IMG/VR virus record: IMGVR_UViG_2690316131_000018 | Length of the DNA: 29,394 nt | Reading direction: 5' to 3' (one strand) | From: a virus | Lineage: Duplodnaviria > Heunggongvirae > Uroviricota > Caudoviricetes | Shown here: one piece after another, positions 1 to 17,017 of the stretch | Position numbering within the stretch: position 1 is the first letter of the stretch | Layout: every line of letters starts with the position of its first letter | Program-made: the position numbers and the translations under genes | The notes under the pieces: generated by a model | Told to the model about the DNA's origin: nothing | Database searches by the model: none | The model's input: the letters and a program-made list of their open reading frames with translations, nothing else

Positions 1-117
<117 letters not shown>

Positions 118-140
<23 letters not shown>

Positions 141-1359
141 CTAATGCTTTCAGTTCTTCATCTGGCGGCAATAAACCAAGCTTTTGCATTTCAACCTTCA
201 CCCGATTTAATACAGTTCGCATCGCCTGCGCCGTTTCCTGAACAACAGGATTAGCATGCACATCACCGCTTCGCATAGCATTCCCAACCTGCTGACGAAA
301 TGAATCAAAACTCATGTCACCACCATCAGCTTTATACTTTGCGTATGCCTGTTTATTTCCGACAACAACAGCAGCTTCTTCACGCTGCCATCCACGTGTA
401 CGGGTTTCTACAGCTACCGGTGTTTCAATCCCCCTTTCATTTCCTTTAAGGGTGAAATTATTTTCGGCTAACTCCAGCGTTGTTTTTCGCACTGTCTTGG
501 ACGGAGACTCCATTAACCTTGTCAAAGGAGTAAGATAGCTCCCTGCTTTCCATGCAGCCTTTCCAACCACCCCACCGGAAACAGGGGTTAAATCATCCAG
601 AGTCGCTGTATCAATTTTCATAGCACCAACACTACCACCATCAGAAAGCGAAGCGGCAGCCCTGTCAGTCGCTGATGTAATGCTCATATTATCAAGAGCA
701 TCAGCAACCTCACGCGTGGCTGCAGCCCGGACGGATGGCGAAAGCGCAACACCAGCACTGGCAAACACGCCGCTCATCATCGCACCCGCTGCAATGTGAG
801 CGGCACTTTCACCCCATGAGCGTGTTATTTGCTGATTATTCAGCACAACCTCGCTTAATGCTGTACCGGCTGCACCAATCGCAATCTGTGAGCCAATACG
901 CGCCAGTGCCCCTCCTTGAGCACCAGGGATAAACATTGACGCAACAGTAACCGGATCCATTCCCGCAGCAATACTGGCAAGGGTTCCAACTACGCCAGCA
1001 TCAGACAATAAACGTCTGTCTTCATTTTCATCATCTATCTGCTGCTTAATCCACGCCGTTTCCTCTGGCGATCGGGAATCTGCAAATTTCGCCCCCCAGT
1101 ATTCATAACCGTGCAACTCATTTTTATCAGCATATGGGTTATAACCTTCGACCGGTTCAAACTGTCTGGCTGGTCGGAAAAAACCAGCCAGAATATTGTT
1201 CTGTCGCATTGCAGCCCCCCATACGGAAGGCTCCGGTGGCAATGGCTCAGGATTAGCCCCTTCCGGAAGGGCAACATCAAACCCAGTTTGTTCCGGCAAA
1301 ACATTACCTGACGGGATCAGTCCGTTATTAAGATCTTCAGCTTGTGCATAAACTGGCAT
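118..1359 (-). CDS. internal virion/ejection protein; 3' end replaced by IS5-derived sequence (probably truncated)
   Basis: 413-aa ORF whose start overlaps the stop of the upstream gene (TAATG). The last ~7 codons and the stop lie inside the IS element (<=140). Confidence 0.55.
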
Positions 1360-4651: not shown

Positions 4652-5115
4652 TATTTTCTCTCCATGTGAAATCTGTGGAAATTAAGACCAAGAGCACCAT
4701 AAGGCGCGGCTTCTTCAAGCCTGAATCCAAGCCAGTGCAGCCATGCTTTGGCAACATGGTTTCGCTCGTCGACATAGTTTTCCAGGCGCGGATAAACTGC
4801 CAGCATCTGCTGCAATACAGGGCGGCAGTGGCGAAGAAATGTCTTCTGATATTTTTCGATACGGCTGGTTCCGACCAGCCAGGGCGTACCATTGCCACCG
4901 ATCATTGACGCCGGAGATACGCCAAACATGGTTACCAGTTCTCCGTTCGCGAACCCTGACCAGGCCATAGTCGCAGTACGCAGGCCAACACGCAGTGCAT
5001 CTTCGGTAGTCATCAGCGATACCGCATACAGTTCTTCAATATCAGCCTGACGAATATCCGGCAAAATCATCTGAAGATGCTCTTCGGTAGCGGGAATAAT
5101 TCGAACATCGATCAT
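4651..5115 (-). CDS. hypothetical virion-associated protein (gp13-like position)
   Basis: 154-aa ORF, ATG start with ATGA overlaps at both ends, inside the structural operon. Confidence 0.5.
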   Translation of the reverse strand: MIDVRIIPATEEHLQMILPDIRQADIEELYAVSLMTTEDALRVGLRTATMAWSGFANGELVTMFGVSPASMIGGNGTPWLVGTSRIEKYQKTFLRHCRPVLQQMLAVYPRLENYVDERNHVAKAWLHWLGFRLEEAAPYGALGLNFHRFHMERK

Positions 5116-7586
5116 CAGAATCCCCCAACAGTAAGGCGAGGAATAACGGCAAGAACAGACAGCGGCAACGGGTCAAGCTGACGGATTTTTACACGTCCGT
5201 TTTTGCCCCAGTTACTGTCCAGTTTCACTTCTACCTTTCCGGTAGCATCATCAACAGGATCATCGTAGAACTCGAATTCACGCTGTGGATATTCGTACCA
5301 TTTACCGCCGGGCGTAGTCGCCCAGATGCCGCGGCTGGCATTCACAACCAGAGTAACGGACGGGATCACCTGTTTTTTGTCCAGCAGCGTTTCCTGTCCG
5401 TTAATGTTGATATCCAGTGTTTCGAATTCAGCAGTTATTGGCAGGCCGATGTGAACTACAGCCCCCGGAGATTCCAGCGTGACGGCACCTCCGGAAACCA
5501 CTTTCTGTGGTTCCACGTTCGCATCAGAGAGAATGTTTACGGTCTGGCCTTCAAGATGAGACAGGCCTCCAAATGTCCGGCGCGCCATCTGCCAGTTCGT
5601 GGTGGCCACATTCCTGAGGGATGGCGGGACGTTCCTGTTAGCACGAACCACTACAGCGGTATTGCTGGTTACAGAAATAATGTCGCAACGTAATTCTTTT
5701 GACACCTCATCACCAGTATCAGGATCAGTTCCGGTATAAGGGAACTGTAGTTGCGCGCCGACATCACTACTGGTGAAGTACGCACCACCAGAAACACTGA
5801 TTGTATATTCCGCGCGGTAATCCCATTCACCAGAACCACCAGTGATGGTCATCGTTCTGTCAGACGTATTTCTTCCATCATAGCTAAGGCCAGAATCAAC
5901 AAAGAAAGCATCTTCATCGCTGGTAAATAAACGGCTGGACAGTCGCTCGATGTATCTCACTGTTTGCCCGTTAACGGTTCGGTTAACGACGAAATACACC
6001 GCATCTTCATTTCCTTCGCTGATACTGCATGTGCTTTCATATTTTCCGGTACTGGATTGTGGTGCCCATGCAAAAACCTGCTGATCACGCAAATAGGTCA
6101 TCACCAGTAATTTACCGTCATCACGAATGCAGAAGGCGCTGGAGTAAGGGACAATAGAGAAGCACCAGTCAACAATACTGTGCTTCTGAAAAAGATGATT
6201 GGCAAGGATGGTCAGGTCGTTCCCCTGATAGCCGTCAACATCGAATGAGTAGGCCAGATCACGGACAACACTGCCTTTCTCCTGGACGAACAGAGCAATA
6301 TTCGCCACGGCAATTGGTGGGACATTGCTCGAGCCATTTGATCCCTGAGAGCTGAATGCAAATGATGATGGGGTAAGCACTTTGTTCTGGTCGCCAGTGA
6401 TGACGTACTCACCTCCGGAAGTCAGCGCCACCAGCGAACCAACATCAATCAGGTGACGGATCTCATTAACCTGACGCCCGGCATAGGTGTAGATAATTCT
6501 GTCGTCATCCTGCGTAGGATTGCTTTTGCCAAAATCCTTATAATCCCCGGTACGGCTGGCCCAGATAGTCTGAGGAAACGCAGTCGATGCGGCGAAGTAA
6601 AGACGTTGTTGATAATAAACAACAGTGCCAGGATAACCATTAACACTGTTCCAGGCATATTTAGCCCATTTATAGCTGGCATTATCCTCGCCCACGACCT
6701 GCGAAGGGATATAGGAAATCACCTCGGCAGTTGCAGTAGTTCCATTTGCAGCAGTGATACGGGCAATGCCAAAACCACTGTGCAGATATTCCCACTCAAT
6801 GCCAGTATCATCATCACCGGATCCGCCCCAGCCATCTCATGATGTGCCTTCTGTATGCGAAGGGCGCAAAGTACCTGTTTTGCCTGCTGTAACGGCGCGA
6901 TAGTAGTTACTGTCTGCACGGCGAATATCGCCAATCGACGTACTCTTACTGGTTTCCCATACCGGCACTGAATCCACTGCAGGCTGTTCCAGATAGAACA
7001 ATTTGCCTACCTGCTCCGCGCCAAAAATAGAGGCGCTTGCCGTTAACGTAATTGTCCCGGTGCTGGCGCTGGCATAAACCGTCACTGACTCGTCAATATT
7101 GATATCTTCAAATGGCCCGTTCTTCGTTACCACATCAACCAGTTGCCAGTTGTCATGAGCATATCGGCGCAACTCTTTCGGCGGGTATGCCGGGTGAACC
7201 AGCGTAAGCACGTCGGCGCTTTGCGTGAATTTAATTCGGAACAGATCGGCTTCAGTATATGGCGTGGCAATTTCATAAATAACATTGCTGCTGTTCAGCA
7301 CCAACGCACCATCTTTGATAACGCGCATGTACTGGTGTCCGAACTCCAGAGCATAGGTCTGAACCGTCGAGAACTCGAACGGGATCAGGCGGCATTTCCG
7401 ATTTGGGTATTTGGCGGCACCGACAAAACGCGTACCAGGTCGATTCTCAACGCCGCCATACTGCCGCACGATAAAGTTATCGCACTTGCGCAATGCTACC
7501 TGGTACTTCGCCATGTCAATACGCCCGTACAACGACGGTCCAATCTCACCACCGGCAAAGCTGGGCTGGATCCAACTGATAGCCAT
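5115..7586 (-). pseudogene. tail tubular protein B-like (T7 gp12-like) gene interrupted by an in-frame TGA
   Basis: ORFs 6837..7586 (249 aa) and 5115..6722 (535 aa) are in the same frame. The 38 codons between them (6723-6836) are all sense; only TGA at 6837-6839 separates them. No ATG or usable ribosome-binding site precedes the second part. The N-terminus (MAISWIQPSFAGGEIG) resembles the start of T7 gp12 from memory, and combined length is ~820 aa. Confidence 0.6.
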
Positions 7587-13720: not shown

Positions 13721-13797
13721 GTGGCATTAGCTCAGTCGGACAGAGCAACCGCCTTCTAAGCGGTTGGTCGCAGGTTCGAATCCTGCATGCCACGCCA
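13721..13797 (+). tRNA. tRNA-Arg (anticodon UCU), phage-encoded
   Basis: 77-nt cloverleaf folded by hand: acceptor stem GTGGCAT/ATGCCAC, D-stem GCTC/GAGC, anticodon stem ACCGC/GCGGT with loop CTTCTAA, T-arm GCAGG-TTCGAAT-CCTGC, discriminator G and encoded CCA. D- and T-arms resemble host argU; acceptor and anticodon stems differ. Confidence 0.85.
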
Positions 13798-14019: not shown

Positions 14020-14838
14020 ATGAAAAAATTCAAGGTAATTAGCATGTTTGAATCGTTCAAAGAGCTGTTTTTATCTACTGCCAATACTGCCGTGAATCGA
14101 GCCAAAAACCCTGTGCTTGGTGCTTTTGTTATGTCCTGGTGCGCCTTCAACTGGAAATCAATTCTTTATCTATTTTTTAGCAAATCAAACATAATAGATA
14201 AAATTTCATATATCTCAGATAACAGCACATGGAAAACTGTTATGTTTTATCCATGCTTATCTGTAATTGCTATCTGCTGCCTATTACCATGGGTAAACAA
14301 TATCATTAACGTATGGCAAGCAAAGCCTCTTGATAATAATGACTCAATCGAAAATCACCTGAAGGCAAGAAAAATCCAGCGTGAAACAAGACTGCAGAGG
14401 TTATTGGCTAAAAAAGATGTTACATACGACAAAGTTAAGACTGGCGCGGAAAAAGACATCCAAGAGATGAAAGAAGAGATTATTCGATCAAAGAATAGTA
14501 TGGGGGAATTGACTGCCGAGTTGAAAGCTAAAGATGACGAATTGAGATCCGCCAGTGCTCAGTTAGCAGCTCTAAATCATTCATTAAAAGAGATATCGGA
14601 AACTCTTGGAAGAATGAATGAGGCATATAAGACCCTCCAAAATGATTTCGACGAATACAAACTCAAATACCCTGAAAAATCTCAAATAAAAAGCCTTGCA
14701 CTTGGCAACGGCCAAACAATTAGCAACTTTTTGGAGCAACACAACTTATCCGGATTAAAATCTGGTAAGCCAAACGTTTTTAATAACTTTGGTGTTCTAT
14801 CTGGATTATCAGGTTTCGAGGATAAAAATAAAGACTAA
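14020..14838 (+). CDS. AT-rich cargo gene: predicted membrane protein with long C-terminal coiled coil, unknown function
   Basis: The track ORF starts at 13948, but the probable start is the ATG at ~14020 (MKKFKVISMF), just after a TATAAT. Two hydrophobic segments near the N-terminus, then a charged heptad-like region. AT-rich versus the rest of the window. Convergent with the terminase gene, stops overlapping. Confidence 0.6.
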   Translation: MKKFKVISMFESFKELFLSTANTAVNRAKNPVLGAFVMSWCAFNWKSILYLFFSKSNIIDKISYISDNSTWKTVMFYPCLSVIAICCLLPWVNNIINVWQAKPLDNNDSIENHLKARKIQRETRLQRLLAKKDVTYDKVKTGAEKDIQEMKEEIIRSKNSMGELTAELKAKDDELRSASAQLAALNHSLKEISETLGRMNEAYKTLQNDFDEYKLKYPEKSQIKSLALGNGQTISNFLEQHNLSGLKSGKPNVFNNFGVLSGLSGFEDKNKD

Positions 14839-16310
14839 GCATATGGATCGTACTCGGTAAGCGCCTTGCCTTGCTGGTTCTGCTGCCCGGGAAGTCGCAG
14901 GCGCTTTGACACCGGGAAAGCAAACGTCAGCAGTAGCGCATCGCCTTTACCAGGAGAACGCCCAAGACGCTCTTTGATATCTTCCTTCGGTTCGATAACG
15001 ATTTTACCGTCCACACGAACTTTGTACTCTGCCGCCGACAGGTCGTCTGCAGTTTCCTGGTCATCCAGCATGCCGCCCAGCCTCAGCCATGTCTTACATG
15101 AGTTGAACATCTCCCCACGCTTGTTAAGCATCTGCGGGTCAGTGGACGCACCGCCGAACGGAACAAGTTGCCATGTACGCCCCCAGCCATCACCGATTGA
15201 CTTCAAACCGGTTCCGTAACCGAAGTCGATGAACACCGCGTCAGCCTGATACTGGTCTTCAAAGTCAGCGATACGCTTCGCCATAATCAGATCGTCAGTG
15301 GTCTTGTTGCCAGTCCACAGCACCTTACTGTGCAGCCCCTGCCGCAGGTATATCGCAGCGTCATCAACACCGGAGTATGCCGGGTCAACGCCGATTATCA
15401 CCGGAGCATGTACCACCTGCGCAGCGGTTACCACCCGTTTCATTGCCTCATCAGTAAGACCGGTAGGGATAAACTGCAATTCAGATGCATCAGGGAATAT
15501 GCCGCGCACACGGATTTTAACGAAGTCGCTGTCTTCCCCGTAGTCATCAACCCATTTCTGCAACTGCTATTTGTTAGTGCCTTCCACCGTCCGGCTGTCA
15601 ATCTGCGCAGTTTTCCAGCGGTGTTTGTATTTGCGGAAACATTCGCGAAAACGCCCGGTGTTACGTGTAGGGTTTCCGAACGCCACCCAGATAATCTCAG
15701 TGTCTTCGTCCGTAAGAGCACCCTCAGCAACTTCCCACACCAGATCCGCAATGTTCGACGCTTCATCAAATACCACGATGATGCGTTTGCGCTCGTTGTG
15801 TAGTCCGGCGAATGCCTCAGTGTTGTGCTCAGACCAGGGTATTGCGTCAGCCCGCCACCGCTTGTCGTGCCCAGGGTCATTGCTGTACATCGCGGTAGCG
15901 GTACAGGTAAACCAGTCTTTCGTGATGGCAAGGTTCGACCACTTGATAATTTCCGGCCAGGTCTTCGTTCGTAGCTGGTTGTCGGTGTTGGCGGTCACCA
16001 CGACCTTACAATCCTCGCAAGTGGACATGCCCCAGTTGATCAGCATTGAGATGAATGCGGATTTACCAATACCGTGACCAGAAGCGCGTGCCAGCATAAG
16101 CGGCTGATAGCGCGTCTCTGGATTCTGCAGGTGATCACGTATCTCTCGGAACGCATCGGCCTGCCACTGACGTGGACCGGTAGCATGTGCCAGTTCAGTC
16201 CCCTCTTCCCCCCAAGGGAACGCATAGAGGGCATAGCCAAGCGGATCGTGAGTGAACCCTGCAATATCTTCGATTAACTGCTCTTCAGGAGATAACGCTG
16301 CATCTGTCAC
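14835..16310 (-). pseudogene. terminase large subunit interrupted by an in-frame TAG
   Basis: ORF 15567..16310 has Walker A (GHGIGKS) and Walker B (IIVVFDEAS) motifs; ORF 14835..15563 has a nuclease-like Asp-rich region. Both are in one frame, separated only by TAG at 15567-15569 plus one sense codon. The second ORF starts at TTG, not ATG. Confidence 0.7.
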
Positions 16311-17017
16311 TGATTACCATCCTGACGTTCTTTGAGTCGCTTCCTGGCTGCTGCTATGCGATCAGCAATTGTCACATTCACATTAACATCCAGGCGTTCT
16401 TTGAATGCGTTGACGTCGACGTGCTTACCGATGAGCTCGAGGTTTTTCACCTTGTCGGGCCATTTCACCTTCTTCAGGATATGCTCGACATCCTCAACAG
16501 AGAGATCCGCCTCGCCATTCTCTTTTTGCAGGGAAGCCTGGGTTGTCTTGATGGTAGCGATATCCATAGCACTGAGAGAGGTACGCCAGACCTTCGGCCA
16601 TTCAGTGATCGGCTTCATCCCGCCGTCATCGTTCAGTATATCCAGCACGTCCATCTGGTCTATTTCCACCAGGCGCATGAGAACGTAATCAGCACTGACG
16701 CGCATTCGTTTGTTGCGCTCCTCCATCAACTCGGCAATCCGTTTTTGAATGCGTTCATCGCGCATCATGACACTGGCTTTAACTGCCGCTGTATTTGGAG
16801 AGAATCCTGCGTTAATCGCTGCCTGAGTCTGGTTTTCAGGCGTTTTGATGTATGACTGGCAATAAGCCTCCTGCATTGCTGTTAGTGGCTTAAATTGCGT
16901 TGATTTGCGTTTATAGGTTTTAGGTTCAGCAGGCATCATAACCACCCTGGTAATTGTTACCGTCGTGGTAATAGTAACATGCAAAATAAAGCCGCCATAG
17001 TTGGCGGCAGTATTCAA
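16307..17017 (-). CDS. terminase small subunit
   Basis: Motif AYCQSYIKTPENQTQAAINAGFS is typical of phage small terminases. Probable start is the ATG at ~16939 (MMPAEPK); the longer track N-terminus would run through a terminator and operator. Confidence 0.65.
   Translation of the reverse strand: MNTAANYGGFILHVTITTTVTITRVVMMPAEPKTYKRKSTQFKPLTAMQEAYCQSYIKTPENQTQAAINAGFSPNTAAVKASVMMRDERIQKRIAELMEERNKRMRVSADYVLMRLVEIDQMDVLDILNDDGGMKPITEWPKVWRTSLSAMDIATIKTTQASLQKENGEADLSVEDVEHILKKVKWPDKVKNLELIGKHVDVNAFKERLDVNVNVTIADRIAAARKRLKERQDGNQ
16957..16971. promoter_or_regulatory. operator-like palindrome TTACCGTCGTGGTAA just upstream of the terminase genes
   Basis: Perfect TTACC-N5-GGTAA between the terminator (16981-17008) and the small terminase start (~16939). 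Confidence 0.45.
16981..17008 (-). terminator. rho-independent terminator between the nin-like block and the terminase genes
   Basis: GCCGCC-N6-GGCGGC hairpin followed on the - strand by TTTATTTTG. Confidence 0.5.

What the first reader, a model, noticed from the sequence alone, without database searches (positions are those of the whole stretch)
15561..15569. In-frame amber codon splits the large terminase between its ATPase and nuclease domains
The two terminase ORFs share a frame and are separated only by TAG at 15567-15569 plus one sense codon, and the second half has no ATG. Without suppression this prophage cannot package DNA. The phage tRNA is Arg(UCU), not a suppressor.
Basis: seen in the sequence. 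Interest (0 to 1): 0.6.

Follow-up and report, generated by a model that had tools for sequence, protein, structure and literature searches.

The report
Nonsense mutation in dead prophage terminase
The amber stop codon in the phage DNA-packaging enzyme gene is real, but it is an ordinary, very recent single-base knockout in an E. coli prophage that an IS5 insertion had already disabled and that also carries a second nonsense mutation.

Summary
The large terminase gene (TerL, minus strand, 16310..14835, 491 codons) has an in-frame TAG at 15567-15569. It is followed by CAG and then TTG, and the next in-frame ATG is 42 codons downstream.

The stop is a single C>T change, CAG(Gln248)>TAG. All 17 related loci outside this clone have CAG. 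None of 483 matching places in complete E. coli genomes is identical across the site. Ten other E. coli assemblies carry a TerL gene that differs from the window's by this one base only.

It is not a sequencing error. The same TAG is in two NCBI assemblies and in an independent read-level assembly (ERR137821).

It is not a special device either. The same small clone carries a second nonsense mutation, TGG>TGA, in the 823-aa tail gene (6837-6839). It also has an IS5 insertion truncating a 1004-aa internal virion protein gene (window 1-140). That insertion is older, because a sibling has IS5 with an intact tail gene.

There is no suppressor tRNA in the window. No close homologue listed is split at this junction.

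Verdict: routine pseudogenisation of a phiV10/epsilon15-like (Uetakevirus) prophage. Low interest, already known.

The parts
14835..16310 (-). Large terminase (TerL) pseudogene. It has 491 codons and is interrupted at codon 248.
   Evidence: Translation. 95.7-97.6% nucleotide identity to intact 1476-nt TerL genes of phiV10, PAS61, TL-2011b and E. coli prophages. PHROG 2 'terminase large subunit', E 3.8e-52. Foldseek to Sf6 gp2, T4 gp17 and HK97 TerL.
15567..15569 (-). In-frame amber codon TAG (Gln248>stop). The mutated base is plus-strand A at 15569, where relatives have G.
   Evidence: Seventeen related loci have CAG. TAG occurs only in five loci, all from this clone.
15570..16310 (-). N-terminal ORF of 247 aa: the ATPase core with Walker A (77-84), Walker B (177-183) and motif III (211-215).
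   Evidence: Annotated in NCBI as CTV29190.1 and CTV51785.1.
14835..15563 (-). C-terminal ORF of 242 aa from TTG: lid/linker helices plus the RNase H-like nuclease domain (D309, D357/D362, D457). It has no ATG and no Shine-Dalgarno sequence at usable spacing.
   Evidence: Nuclease-only structures 5C10/5C12 align over about 230 columns with TMt 0.62-0.64.
16307..17017 (-). Small terminase (TerS, PF03592). It is intact and overlaps the TerL start by 4 nt.
5115..7586 (-). 823-aa tail protein gene (PHROG 376), interrupted at codon 250.
6837..6839 (-). Second in-frame stop, TGA, derived from TGG (Trp250). The mutated base is plus-strand T at 6837, where relatives have C.
   Evidence: Twenty-five related loci have TGG. 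TGA occurs only in this clone.
1..140 (.). Outer end of an IS5 element. The terminal inverted repeat is at 121-140. The draft contig ends inside it.
   Evidence: 100% identity to IS5/ISKpn26 copies in 1840 E. coli genomes. Homology to the phage gene starts at about 140.
118..1359 (-). Truncated internal virion protein gene. Only residues 1-408 of 1004 remain, and the frame then runs into IS5.
   Evidence: tblastn. Intact 1004-aa genes in 10 relatives. The same truncated ORF occurs next to an intact tail gene in SRR29313759.
13721..13797 (+). Prophage tRNA-Arg(UCU). It is not a suppressor.
   Evidence: ARAGORN. The same tRNA is annotated in relatives.

Best explanation
This is a recent loss-of-function point mutation. 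One C>T transition turned codon 248 of the large terminase gene from CAG (Gln) into TAG. Translation should now stop after the ATPase core. The predicted product is a 247-aa fragment without the lid/linker helices and without the nuclease domain, so the enzyme should neither cut nor package DNA.

The mutation arose in a small clonal E. coli lineage. Its phiV10/epsilon15-like prophage had already been disabled by an IS5 insertion in a 1004-aa internal virion protein gene. The same lineage also acquired a TGG>TGA nonsense mutation in the 823-aa tail gene. Together these are the usual decay of a prophage whose late genes appear to be no longer under selection.

Shown here: the mutation and its ancestral state, its presence in independent assemblies, the other two lesions, and the order IS5 first with the tail nonsense mutation later. 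Inferred: that TAG also arose after IS5, that the truncated protein is non-functional, and that the prophage cannot produce particles.
For: - Ancestral codon: phiV10, PAS61 and TL-2011b have AAA CAG CAG TTG where the window has AAA TAG CAG TTG. CAG is present in 17 of 17 loci outside the clone.
- Rarity: none of 483 places in complete E. coli genomes is identical over the 61-mer centred on the TAG. The same holds for 0 of 522 places for the TGA 61-mer.
- Recency: the repaired TerL (Q248) and the repaired tail protein (W250) both exist exactly in other E. coli genomes. TerL in ten other loci differs from the window by 1 nt in 1476.
- Sibling prophages: GCA_012791145.1 differs at 5 sites in 20,711 nt and GCA_048834105.1 at 3 sites in 12,304 nt. 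In both cases two of those sites are the two nonsense mutations.
- Reality of the base: the same TAG and TGA occur in GCA_001285885.1 (2 other SNPs), in GCA_001284925.1, and in the Logan assembly of run ERR137821.
- IS5: window 1-140 is an IS5 end. The phage gene is cut at residue 408 of 1004.
- Order of events: Logan SRR29313759 has the IS5-truncated ORF together with an intact 823-aa tail gene.
- Rest of the element: 30 other genes match their relatives over their aligned length with no internal stop.
- Homologues: the 120 best hits of 8000 are single chains of 482-504 aa or intein-containing chains of about 813 aa.
- Position of the stop.
Against: - Raw reads could not be inspected directly.
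- The host genome could not be searched for an amber-suppressor tRNA.
- Two of the two or three substitutions on the stem of this clone are nonsense. Under random mutation the expected share is 3.9% (6.0% for G:C>A:T changes). The naive P is about 0.004-0.01. It is about 0.04-0.12 once one of the two is treated as the reason the site was examined. Purely neutral decay is therefore not the only reading.
- No experiment shows that the truncated protein is inactive.
Confidence: 0.89

Rival explanations
1. The loss was adaptive. The nonsense mutations in TerL and the tail gene were favoured by selection in the host, for example because residual late-gene expression was costly or was sensed by a terminase-recognising defence system. 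They would then not be neutral decay.
For: Two of the two or three substitutions on the clone's stem are nonsense, and both are in late genes. The random expectation is 3.9-6.0% per substitution. TerL is a known trigger of Avs3, and structure 8DGC appears among the Foldseek hits.
Against: After allowing for ascertainment, P is only about 0.04-0.12. The counts are tiny. IS5 had probably already disabled the prophage, so neutral decay is expected anyway. No defence system was looked for or seen. The N-terminal ATPase fragment could still be made.
Confidence: 0.06
2. The amber codon is leaky or suppressed. It would be read as Gln by a host suppressor (supE-type tRNA-Gln CUA) or by near-cognate tRNA-Gln, so some full-length wild-type TerL is still made.
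For: Inserting Gln at UAG would restore the exact wild-type protein, because the ancestral codon is CAG. The stop is followed by C, a weak termination context in E. coli (own knowledge, not tested here). In-frame stops in bacterial genes are sometimes read through (PMC7918605).
Against: No suppressor tRNA is in the window. The stop is not conserved outside one clone. The prophage has two other lesions, so restored TerL would not rescue it. PMC7918605 itself attributes the excess of in-frame stops in phage and transposon genes mainly to pseudogenes.
Confidence: 0.03
3. It is a sequencing or assembly error, and the real genome has CAG.
For: It is a single-base difference in a draft assembly. No complete E. 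coli genome carries it.
Against: The same base appears in two NCBI assemblies that differ from each other at two other sites. It also appears in an independent Logan assembly of run ERR137821 that runs through both nonsense sites. No internal stops were found in the other 30 matched genes, which would be unlikely in an error-prone assembly.
Confidence: 0.01
4. It is a genuinely split terminase. The ATPase and nuclease halves would be made as two proteins, the second by re-initiation at TTG 15561-15563, and would work together.
For: The two ORFs correspond roughly to the two domains. A TTG lies two codons after the stop.
Against: The listed homologues are all single chains. The nearest Shine-Dalgarno-like sequence, GGAAGG, ends 16 nt upstream of the TTG (read). 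The split is one mutation old. In T4 gp17 the separated domains do not package DNA (own knowledge, not tested here).
Confidence: 0.01

Closest known systems
Intact TerL of Uetakevirus phages and prophages (phiV10 PhiV10p02, vB_EcoP_PAS61 WMX18983.1, TL-2011b gp22; E. coli protein EFL0670688.1)
   Same: Same gene, same length (1476 nt), same neighbours (TerS upstream, tRNA-Arg and portal beyond). Nucleotide identity is 95.7-96.9% to the phages, and there is a 1-nt difference from several E. coli prophage alleles.
   Different: Those genes have CAG at codon 248 and are uninterrupted. The window has TAG.
Defective ('grounded' or cryptic) prophages of E. coli, decaying by IS insertion and point mutation (Bobay et al. 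2014, PMC4143005, as cited in PMC7918605; Ramisetty & Sudhakari 2019, PMC6379469, title and abstract only)
   Same: Inactivating lesions accumulate in late genes while the 30 other genes checked, early region included, show no internal stops. Here that means one IS5 insertion plus two nonsense mutations.
   Different: Nothing in kind. This is an early stage of decay: gene order and the other 30 genes are still intact.
Laboratory amber mutants of terminase genes (conditional-lethal mutants grown on supE/supF hosts; own knowledge)
   Same: The same kind of change, CAG>TAG in a packaging gene. A Gln-inserting suppressor would restore the wild-type protein.
   Different: This is in draft E. coli genome assemblies that carry no sign of laboratory origin. 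There is no evidence of a suppressor host, and the mutation sits alongside an opal mutation and an IS5 insertion that an amber suppressor would not fix.
In-frame stop codons proposed to be read through in bacteria (Belinky et al. 2021, PMC7918605)
   Same: A TAG/CAG alternation at one codon of an otherwise conserved gene.
   Different: Their candidates are stops shared by different species with purifying selection around them. This stop is confined to one clone and has no further substitutions on which selection could be measured.

Membership tests
Phage large terminase (two-domain ASCE ATPase + RNase H-like nuclease) | Walker A, Walker B and motif III in the N-terminal half | tested here: met
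   In 38 homologues, S77-G-H-G-I-G-K83-S84 and D182-E183 are invariant, and F211-G-N-P-T215 is nearly invariant.
Phage large terminase (two-domain ASCE ATPase + RNase H-like nuclease) | Fold similarity of both halves to solved terminase structures | tested here: met
   The AlphaFold model has pLDDT 76.5. Foldseek gives Sf6 gp2 4IDH E 3.4e-13, T4 gp17 3CPE E 6.9e-9 and HK97 6Z6D E 2e-8. Nuclease-only 5C10/5C12 reach TMt 0.62-0.64. The ATPase-only 2O0H aligns over 300 columns.
Phage large terminase (two-domain ASCE ATPase + RNase H-like nuclease) | Match to curated sequence families | tested here: inconclusive
   PHROG 2 'terminase large subunit' matches with E 3.8e-52. Pfam, NCBIfam and PDB sequence searches give no hit. 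This is a divergent branch.
Phage large terminase (two-domain ASCE ATPase + RNase H-like nuclease) | Encoded next to a small terminase gene | tested here: met
   TerS (PF03592) lies immediately upstream with a 4-nt overlap.
Phage large terminase (two-domain ASCE ATPase + RNase H-like nuclease) | One uninterrupted reading frame covering both domains | tested here: not met
   TAG at codon 248. The window therefore holds a pseudogene of the family, not a functional member.
Uetakevirus (epsilon15/phiV10-like) prophage | Nucleotide similarity and gene order shared with classified members | tested here: met
   TerL is 95.7-96.9% identical to phiV10 and PAS61. Thirty-two genes are collinear with related E. 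coli prophages.
Pseudogene in a defective prophage | A sense codon at the site in close relatives, with the stop derived | tested here: met
   CAG in 17 of 17 loci outside the clone. Polarity is fixed by outgroups.
Pseudogene in a defective prophage | The mutation is real and inherited | tested here: met
   Present in three assemblies of at least two distinguishable genomes, including one read-level assembly.
Pseudogene in a defective prophage | Other inactivating lesions in the same element | tested here: met
   TGG>TGA in the tail gene. IS5 in the 1004-aa gene.
Pseudogene in a defective prophage | Loss of particle production on induction | not testable with these tools
   This needs an induction experiment.
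Programmed readthrough / suppressor-dependent gene | The stop codon is conserved among homologues | tested here: not met
   0 of 483 places in complete E. coli genomes. 0 of 17 loci outside the clone.
Programmed readthrough / suppressor-dependent gene | A suppressor tRNA encoded by the element | tested here: not met
   The only tRNA is Arg(UCU).
Programmed readthrough / suppressor-dependent gene | A suppressor tRNA in the host genome | not testable with these tools
   The rest of the host assembly (GCA_001284925.1) cannot be read here.
Naturally split terminase (two genes) | Homologues with two separate genes at this junction | tested here: not met
   The best 120 homologues are 482-504 aa, or about 813 aa with an intein. 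The shorter ones listed come from short contigs. Nine of ten places shown that carry the same neighbouring gene have a 491-aa TerL.
Naturally split terminase (two genes) | An own start codon and ribosome-binding site for the second half | tested here: not met
   Only a TTG is available, and the nearest purine-rich stretch ends 16 nt upstream. The first ATG is at codon 290.

The most novel reading that the evidence does not exclude
The two nonsense mutations did not arise by chance decay. They would have been selected in the host to silence the terminase and a tail protein of an already grounded prophage, for instance to avoid self-triggering a terminase-sensing defence system or to end a costly residual late-gene expression. 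A weaker variant is that the UAG-C stop leaks enough Gln insertion to keep a trace of wild-type terminase.
Probability: 0.06. Interest if true: 0.35.

Novelty: already known. Interest (0 to 1): 0.08.

Why it matters
It matters little beyond annotation. The element should be labelled a defective Uetakevirus-like prophage with three disrupted late genes, and the two 'terminase' ORFs should be annotated as one pseudogene. The case has one small methodological use. Intact sibling prophages differ at only 3-5 sites, so the order of decay events can be read directly: the IS5 insertion came first and the tail-gene nonsense mutation later. That makes it a tidy illustration of early prophage decay. It does not open any new question about recoding or terminase biology.

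Tried and rejected
- Sequencing error was rejected. The same base is in independent assemblies.
- A conserved or programmed stop was rejected. There is no identical 61-mer in 5,426 complete E. coli genomes. The exact 41-mer scan of species-representative genomes found nothing. The only IMG/VR hit is the window's own source.
- A natural split gene was rejected from homologue lengths and neighbourhoods.
- Logan contig L010 (SRR21357613) first looked like an independent occurrence in a lineage that is 96% identical. It is only a contig that ends at the base before the codon, so it says nothing about TAG there.
- Pfam, NCBIfam and PDB sequence searches gave no hit for TerL. Domain mapping therefore relied on PHROGs, conserved motifs and a predicted structure.
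Intact siblings were reached through the neighbouring TerS and moron proteins instead.
- The look-up with the 905-aa protein returned only distant long contigs and did not help with the IS5 question.
- The test for an excess of nonsense mutations is suggestive but does not survive correction for ascertainment.

Full report
**The observation**

The gene lies on the minus strand. The plus strand reads 'cta' at 15567-15569, which is TAG on the coding strand. Translating 16310..14835 gives one frame of 491 codons. It runs 247 sense codons, a stop, then Q-L-Q-K-W and so on to the natural stop. The downstream ORF can start no earlier than the TTG at 15561-15563, one codon (CAG) after the stop. The first in-frame ATG is codon 290. 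The only purine-rich stretch upstream, GGAAGG, ends 16 nt before the TTG. The only tRNA in the window is Arg(UCU) at 13721-13797.

**What the gene is**

- The 1476-nt region is 95.7-96.9% identical to the single, uninterrupted large terminase genes of Escherichia phages phiV10, PAS61 and TL-2011b (Uetakevirus, epsilon15-like).
- It is up to 97.6% identical to prophage genes in 524 of 5,426 complete E. coli genomes.
- Pfam, NCBIfam and a PDB sequence search give nothing, but PHROG 2 'terminase large subunit' matches with E 3.8e-52.
- In an alignment of 38 homologues, Walker A (S77-GHGIGK-S84), Walker B (D182-E183) and the nuclease residue D309 (G307-V-D-P310) are invariant, and motif III (F211-GNPT215) is nearly so.
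- An AlphaFold model (pLDDT 76.5) matches full-length Sf6 gp2, T4 gp17 and HK97 TerL. It also matches nuclease-only and ATPase-only crystal structures.
- Residue 248 sits at the start of a helix just after the last core strand of the ATPase (232-237). It comes before the short lid/linker helices and the nuclease domain.

The stop therefore does fall between the two catalytic modules.

**What the stop replaced, and how old it is**

Homologues read AAA CAG CAG TTG where the window reads AAA TAG CAG TTG. This is one C>T transition, Gln248>amber.

- All 17 fetched loci outside this clone have CAG.
- No place in the complete E. coli genomes is identical over a 61-mer centred on the TAG (0 of 483).
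- The protein with Q restored exists exactly in other E. coli assemblies (P0001, 17 contigs).
- TerL in ten other loci differs from the window by exactly this one base in 1476.

The mutation is therefore very recent.

**Is it real?**

The window corresponds to contig CYDD01000008.1 of E. coli assembly GCA_001284925.1 (L024 identical). The single IMG/VR hit is the same sequence. The identical TAG is also in GCA_001285885.1, which differs from the window at two other positions. It is also in the Logan assembly of run ERR137821, built from reads independently. A sequencing error is very unlikely.

**The context changes the significance**

A gene-by-gene comparison with a related prophage shows 30 genes that match over their aligned length with no internal stop, and three lesions:

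1. The TerL amber codon.
2. A second in-frame stop in the 823-aa tail protein gene (7586..5115). It is TGA at 6837-6839, derived from TGG (Trp250). All 25 loci outside the clone have TGG, and none of 522 genomic places is identical across the site.
3. The end of an IS5 element at window 1-140. It cuts a 1004-aa internal virion protein gene after residue 408.

The draft contig ends inside IS5, so the distal part of the prophage was not seen.

**Order of events**

Sibling prophages with intact TerL and tail genes differ from the window at only 5 of 20,711 positions (GCA_012791145.1) or 3 of 12,304 (GCA_048834105.1). In each case two of those differences are the nonsense mutations. A Logan contig from SRR29313759 carries the IS5-truncated 413-aa ORF together with an intact 823-aa tail gene. 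The GCA_012791145.1 contig ends about 7 nt from the IS5 junction (computed from the coordinates). IS5 therefore came first. The tail mutation arose later in a sub-clone, and the TerL mutation most likely did too. Of ten places shown that carry the same neighbouring 272-aa gene, nine have the 491-aa TerL. Only the GCA_001285885.1 place, with one similar place not shown, has the split.

**Mechanism**

The best-supported reading is plain pseudogenisation. Translation should end at codon 248 and yield a 247-aa ATPase-core fragment. No intact packaging motor would be made. The prophage was probably already unable to make infectious particles because of IS5, so the late genes are decaying.

The changes seen within the nonsense clade are two nonsense, two missense, one ambiguous intergenic and no synonymous. 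That fits relaxed constraint, though the numbers are too small to prove it.

**Rival readings**

- *Selection for inactivation.* Two of the two or three substitutions on the clone's stem are nonsense. Random mutation predicts 3.9% (6.0% for G:C>A:T). The naive P is 0.004-0.01. Once one of the two is treated as the reason for looking, the probability of a second is 0.04-0.12. This is suggestive only.
- *Suppression or leaky readthrough.* Gln insertion would restore the wild-type protein. However, there is no suppressor in the window, the stop is not conserved, and TerL alone would not rescue an element with two other lesions. A published survey of bacterial in-frame stops also attributes their excess in phage and transposon genes mainly to pseudogenes (PMC7918605).
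- *A naturally split terminase.* The listed homologues exclude this. They are single chains of 482-504 aa, or chains of about 813 aa that carry an intein.

**Comparison with what is known, and verdict**

This is a member of a well-known class: a defective E. coli prophage accumulating an IS insertion and point nonsense mutations in late genes. There is nothing unusual in kind, and the amber codon is not what keeps this prophage from making phage. Novelty: already known. Interest: low.

Noticed in passing
window 6837-6839 (minus strand), in gene 7586..5115: A second in-frame stop, TGA from TGG (Trp250), splits the 823-aa tail protein gene into 249-aa and 535-aa ORFs. It is confined to the same clone as the TerL amber codon.
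   Followed up: yes
window 1-140 and 118-1359: The end of an IS5 element is inserted in the 1004-aa internal virion protein gene, leaving residues 1-408. The draft contig stops inside IS5, so it is unknown whether the tailspike and lysis genes are still present. A sibling genome has IS5 with an intact tail gene, so IS5 is the oldest lesion.
   Followed up: partly
homologues P0061-P0082 and P0105 (not in the window): About 25 TerL homologues that are 94-98% identical are 812-814 aa long. The one examined in detail (P0064) carries an intein of about 322 aa with a LAGLIDADG homing endonuclease. It is inserted in the Walker A loop between K83 and S84 (GHGIGK|ALRP...VTHN|SAFISML).
   Followed up: partly
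window 14020-14838 (+): A 272-aa gene lies convergent with TerL and overlaps its stop codon by 4 nt. It has hydrophobic N-terminal segments and a long coiled coil. PADLOC and Pfam give only weak coiled-coil-type hits. It sits in a variable slot where other relatives carry a Gp49-family gene, and it is found next to an intact TerL in at least 9 other E. coli assemblies. Its function is unknown.
   Followed up: partly
L010 (Logan SRR21357613_1333221), end of contig: A contig from a TerL lineage that is 96% identical ends exactly at the base before codon 248. This may be a coincidence created by the exact-protein look-up, or a branch in the assembly graph at this position. It is not evidence of a TAG there.
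   Followed up: no
cluster 2 (P0018, P0020, P0025, P0029, P0030): Other shortened proteins of this terminase family (281, 299, 302, 354 and 369 aa) are annotated on long contigs or complete genomes of E. coli and Klebsiella. This suggests independent truncations at other positions.
   Followed up: no
window 21477 and 19563: The window has a private missense change in the DnaT-like replication gene: codon 261 is AGG (Arg) where all relatives have TGG (Trp). Its sister assembly GCA_001285885.1 has a private Q44L change in the 214-aa gene. No synonymous change was seen within the nonsense clade.
   Followed up: partly
window 16307-17017 (minus strand): The TerS ORF is called from a TTG as 236 aa in some assemblies and as 210 aa in another assembly of this prophage. 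Relatives have TerS of 197-224 aa. The N-terminal 26 residues of the long version look like an over-extension.
   Followed up: no
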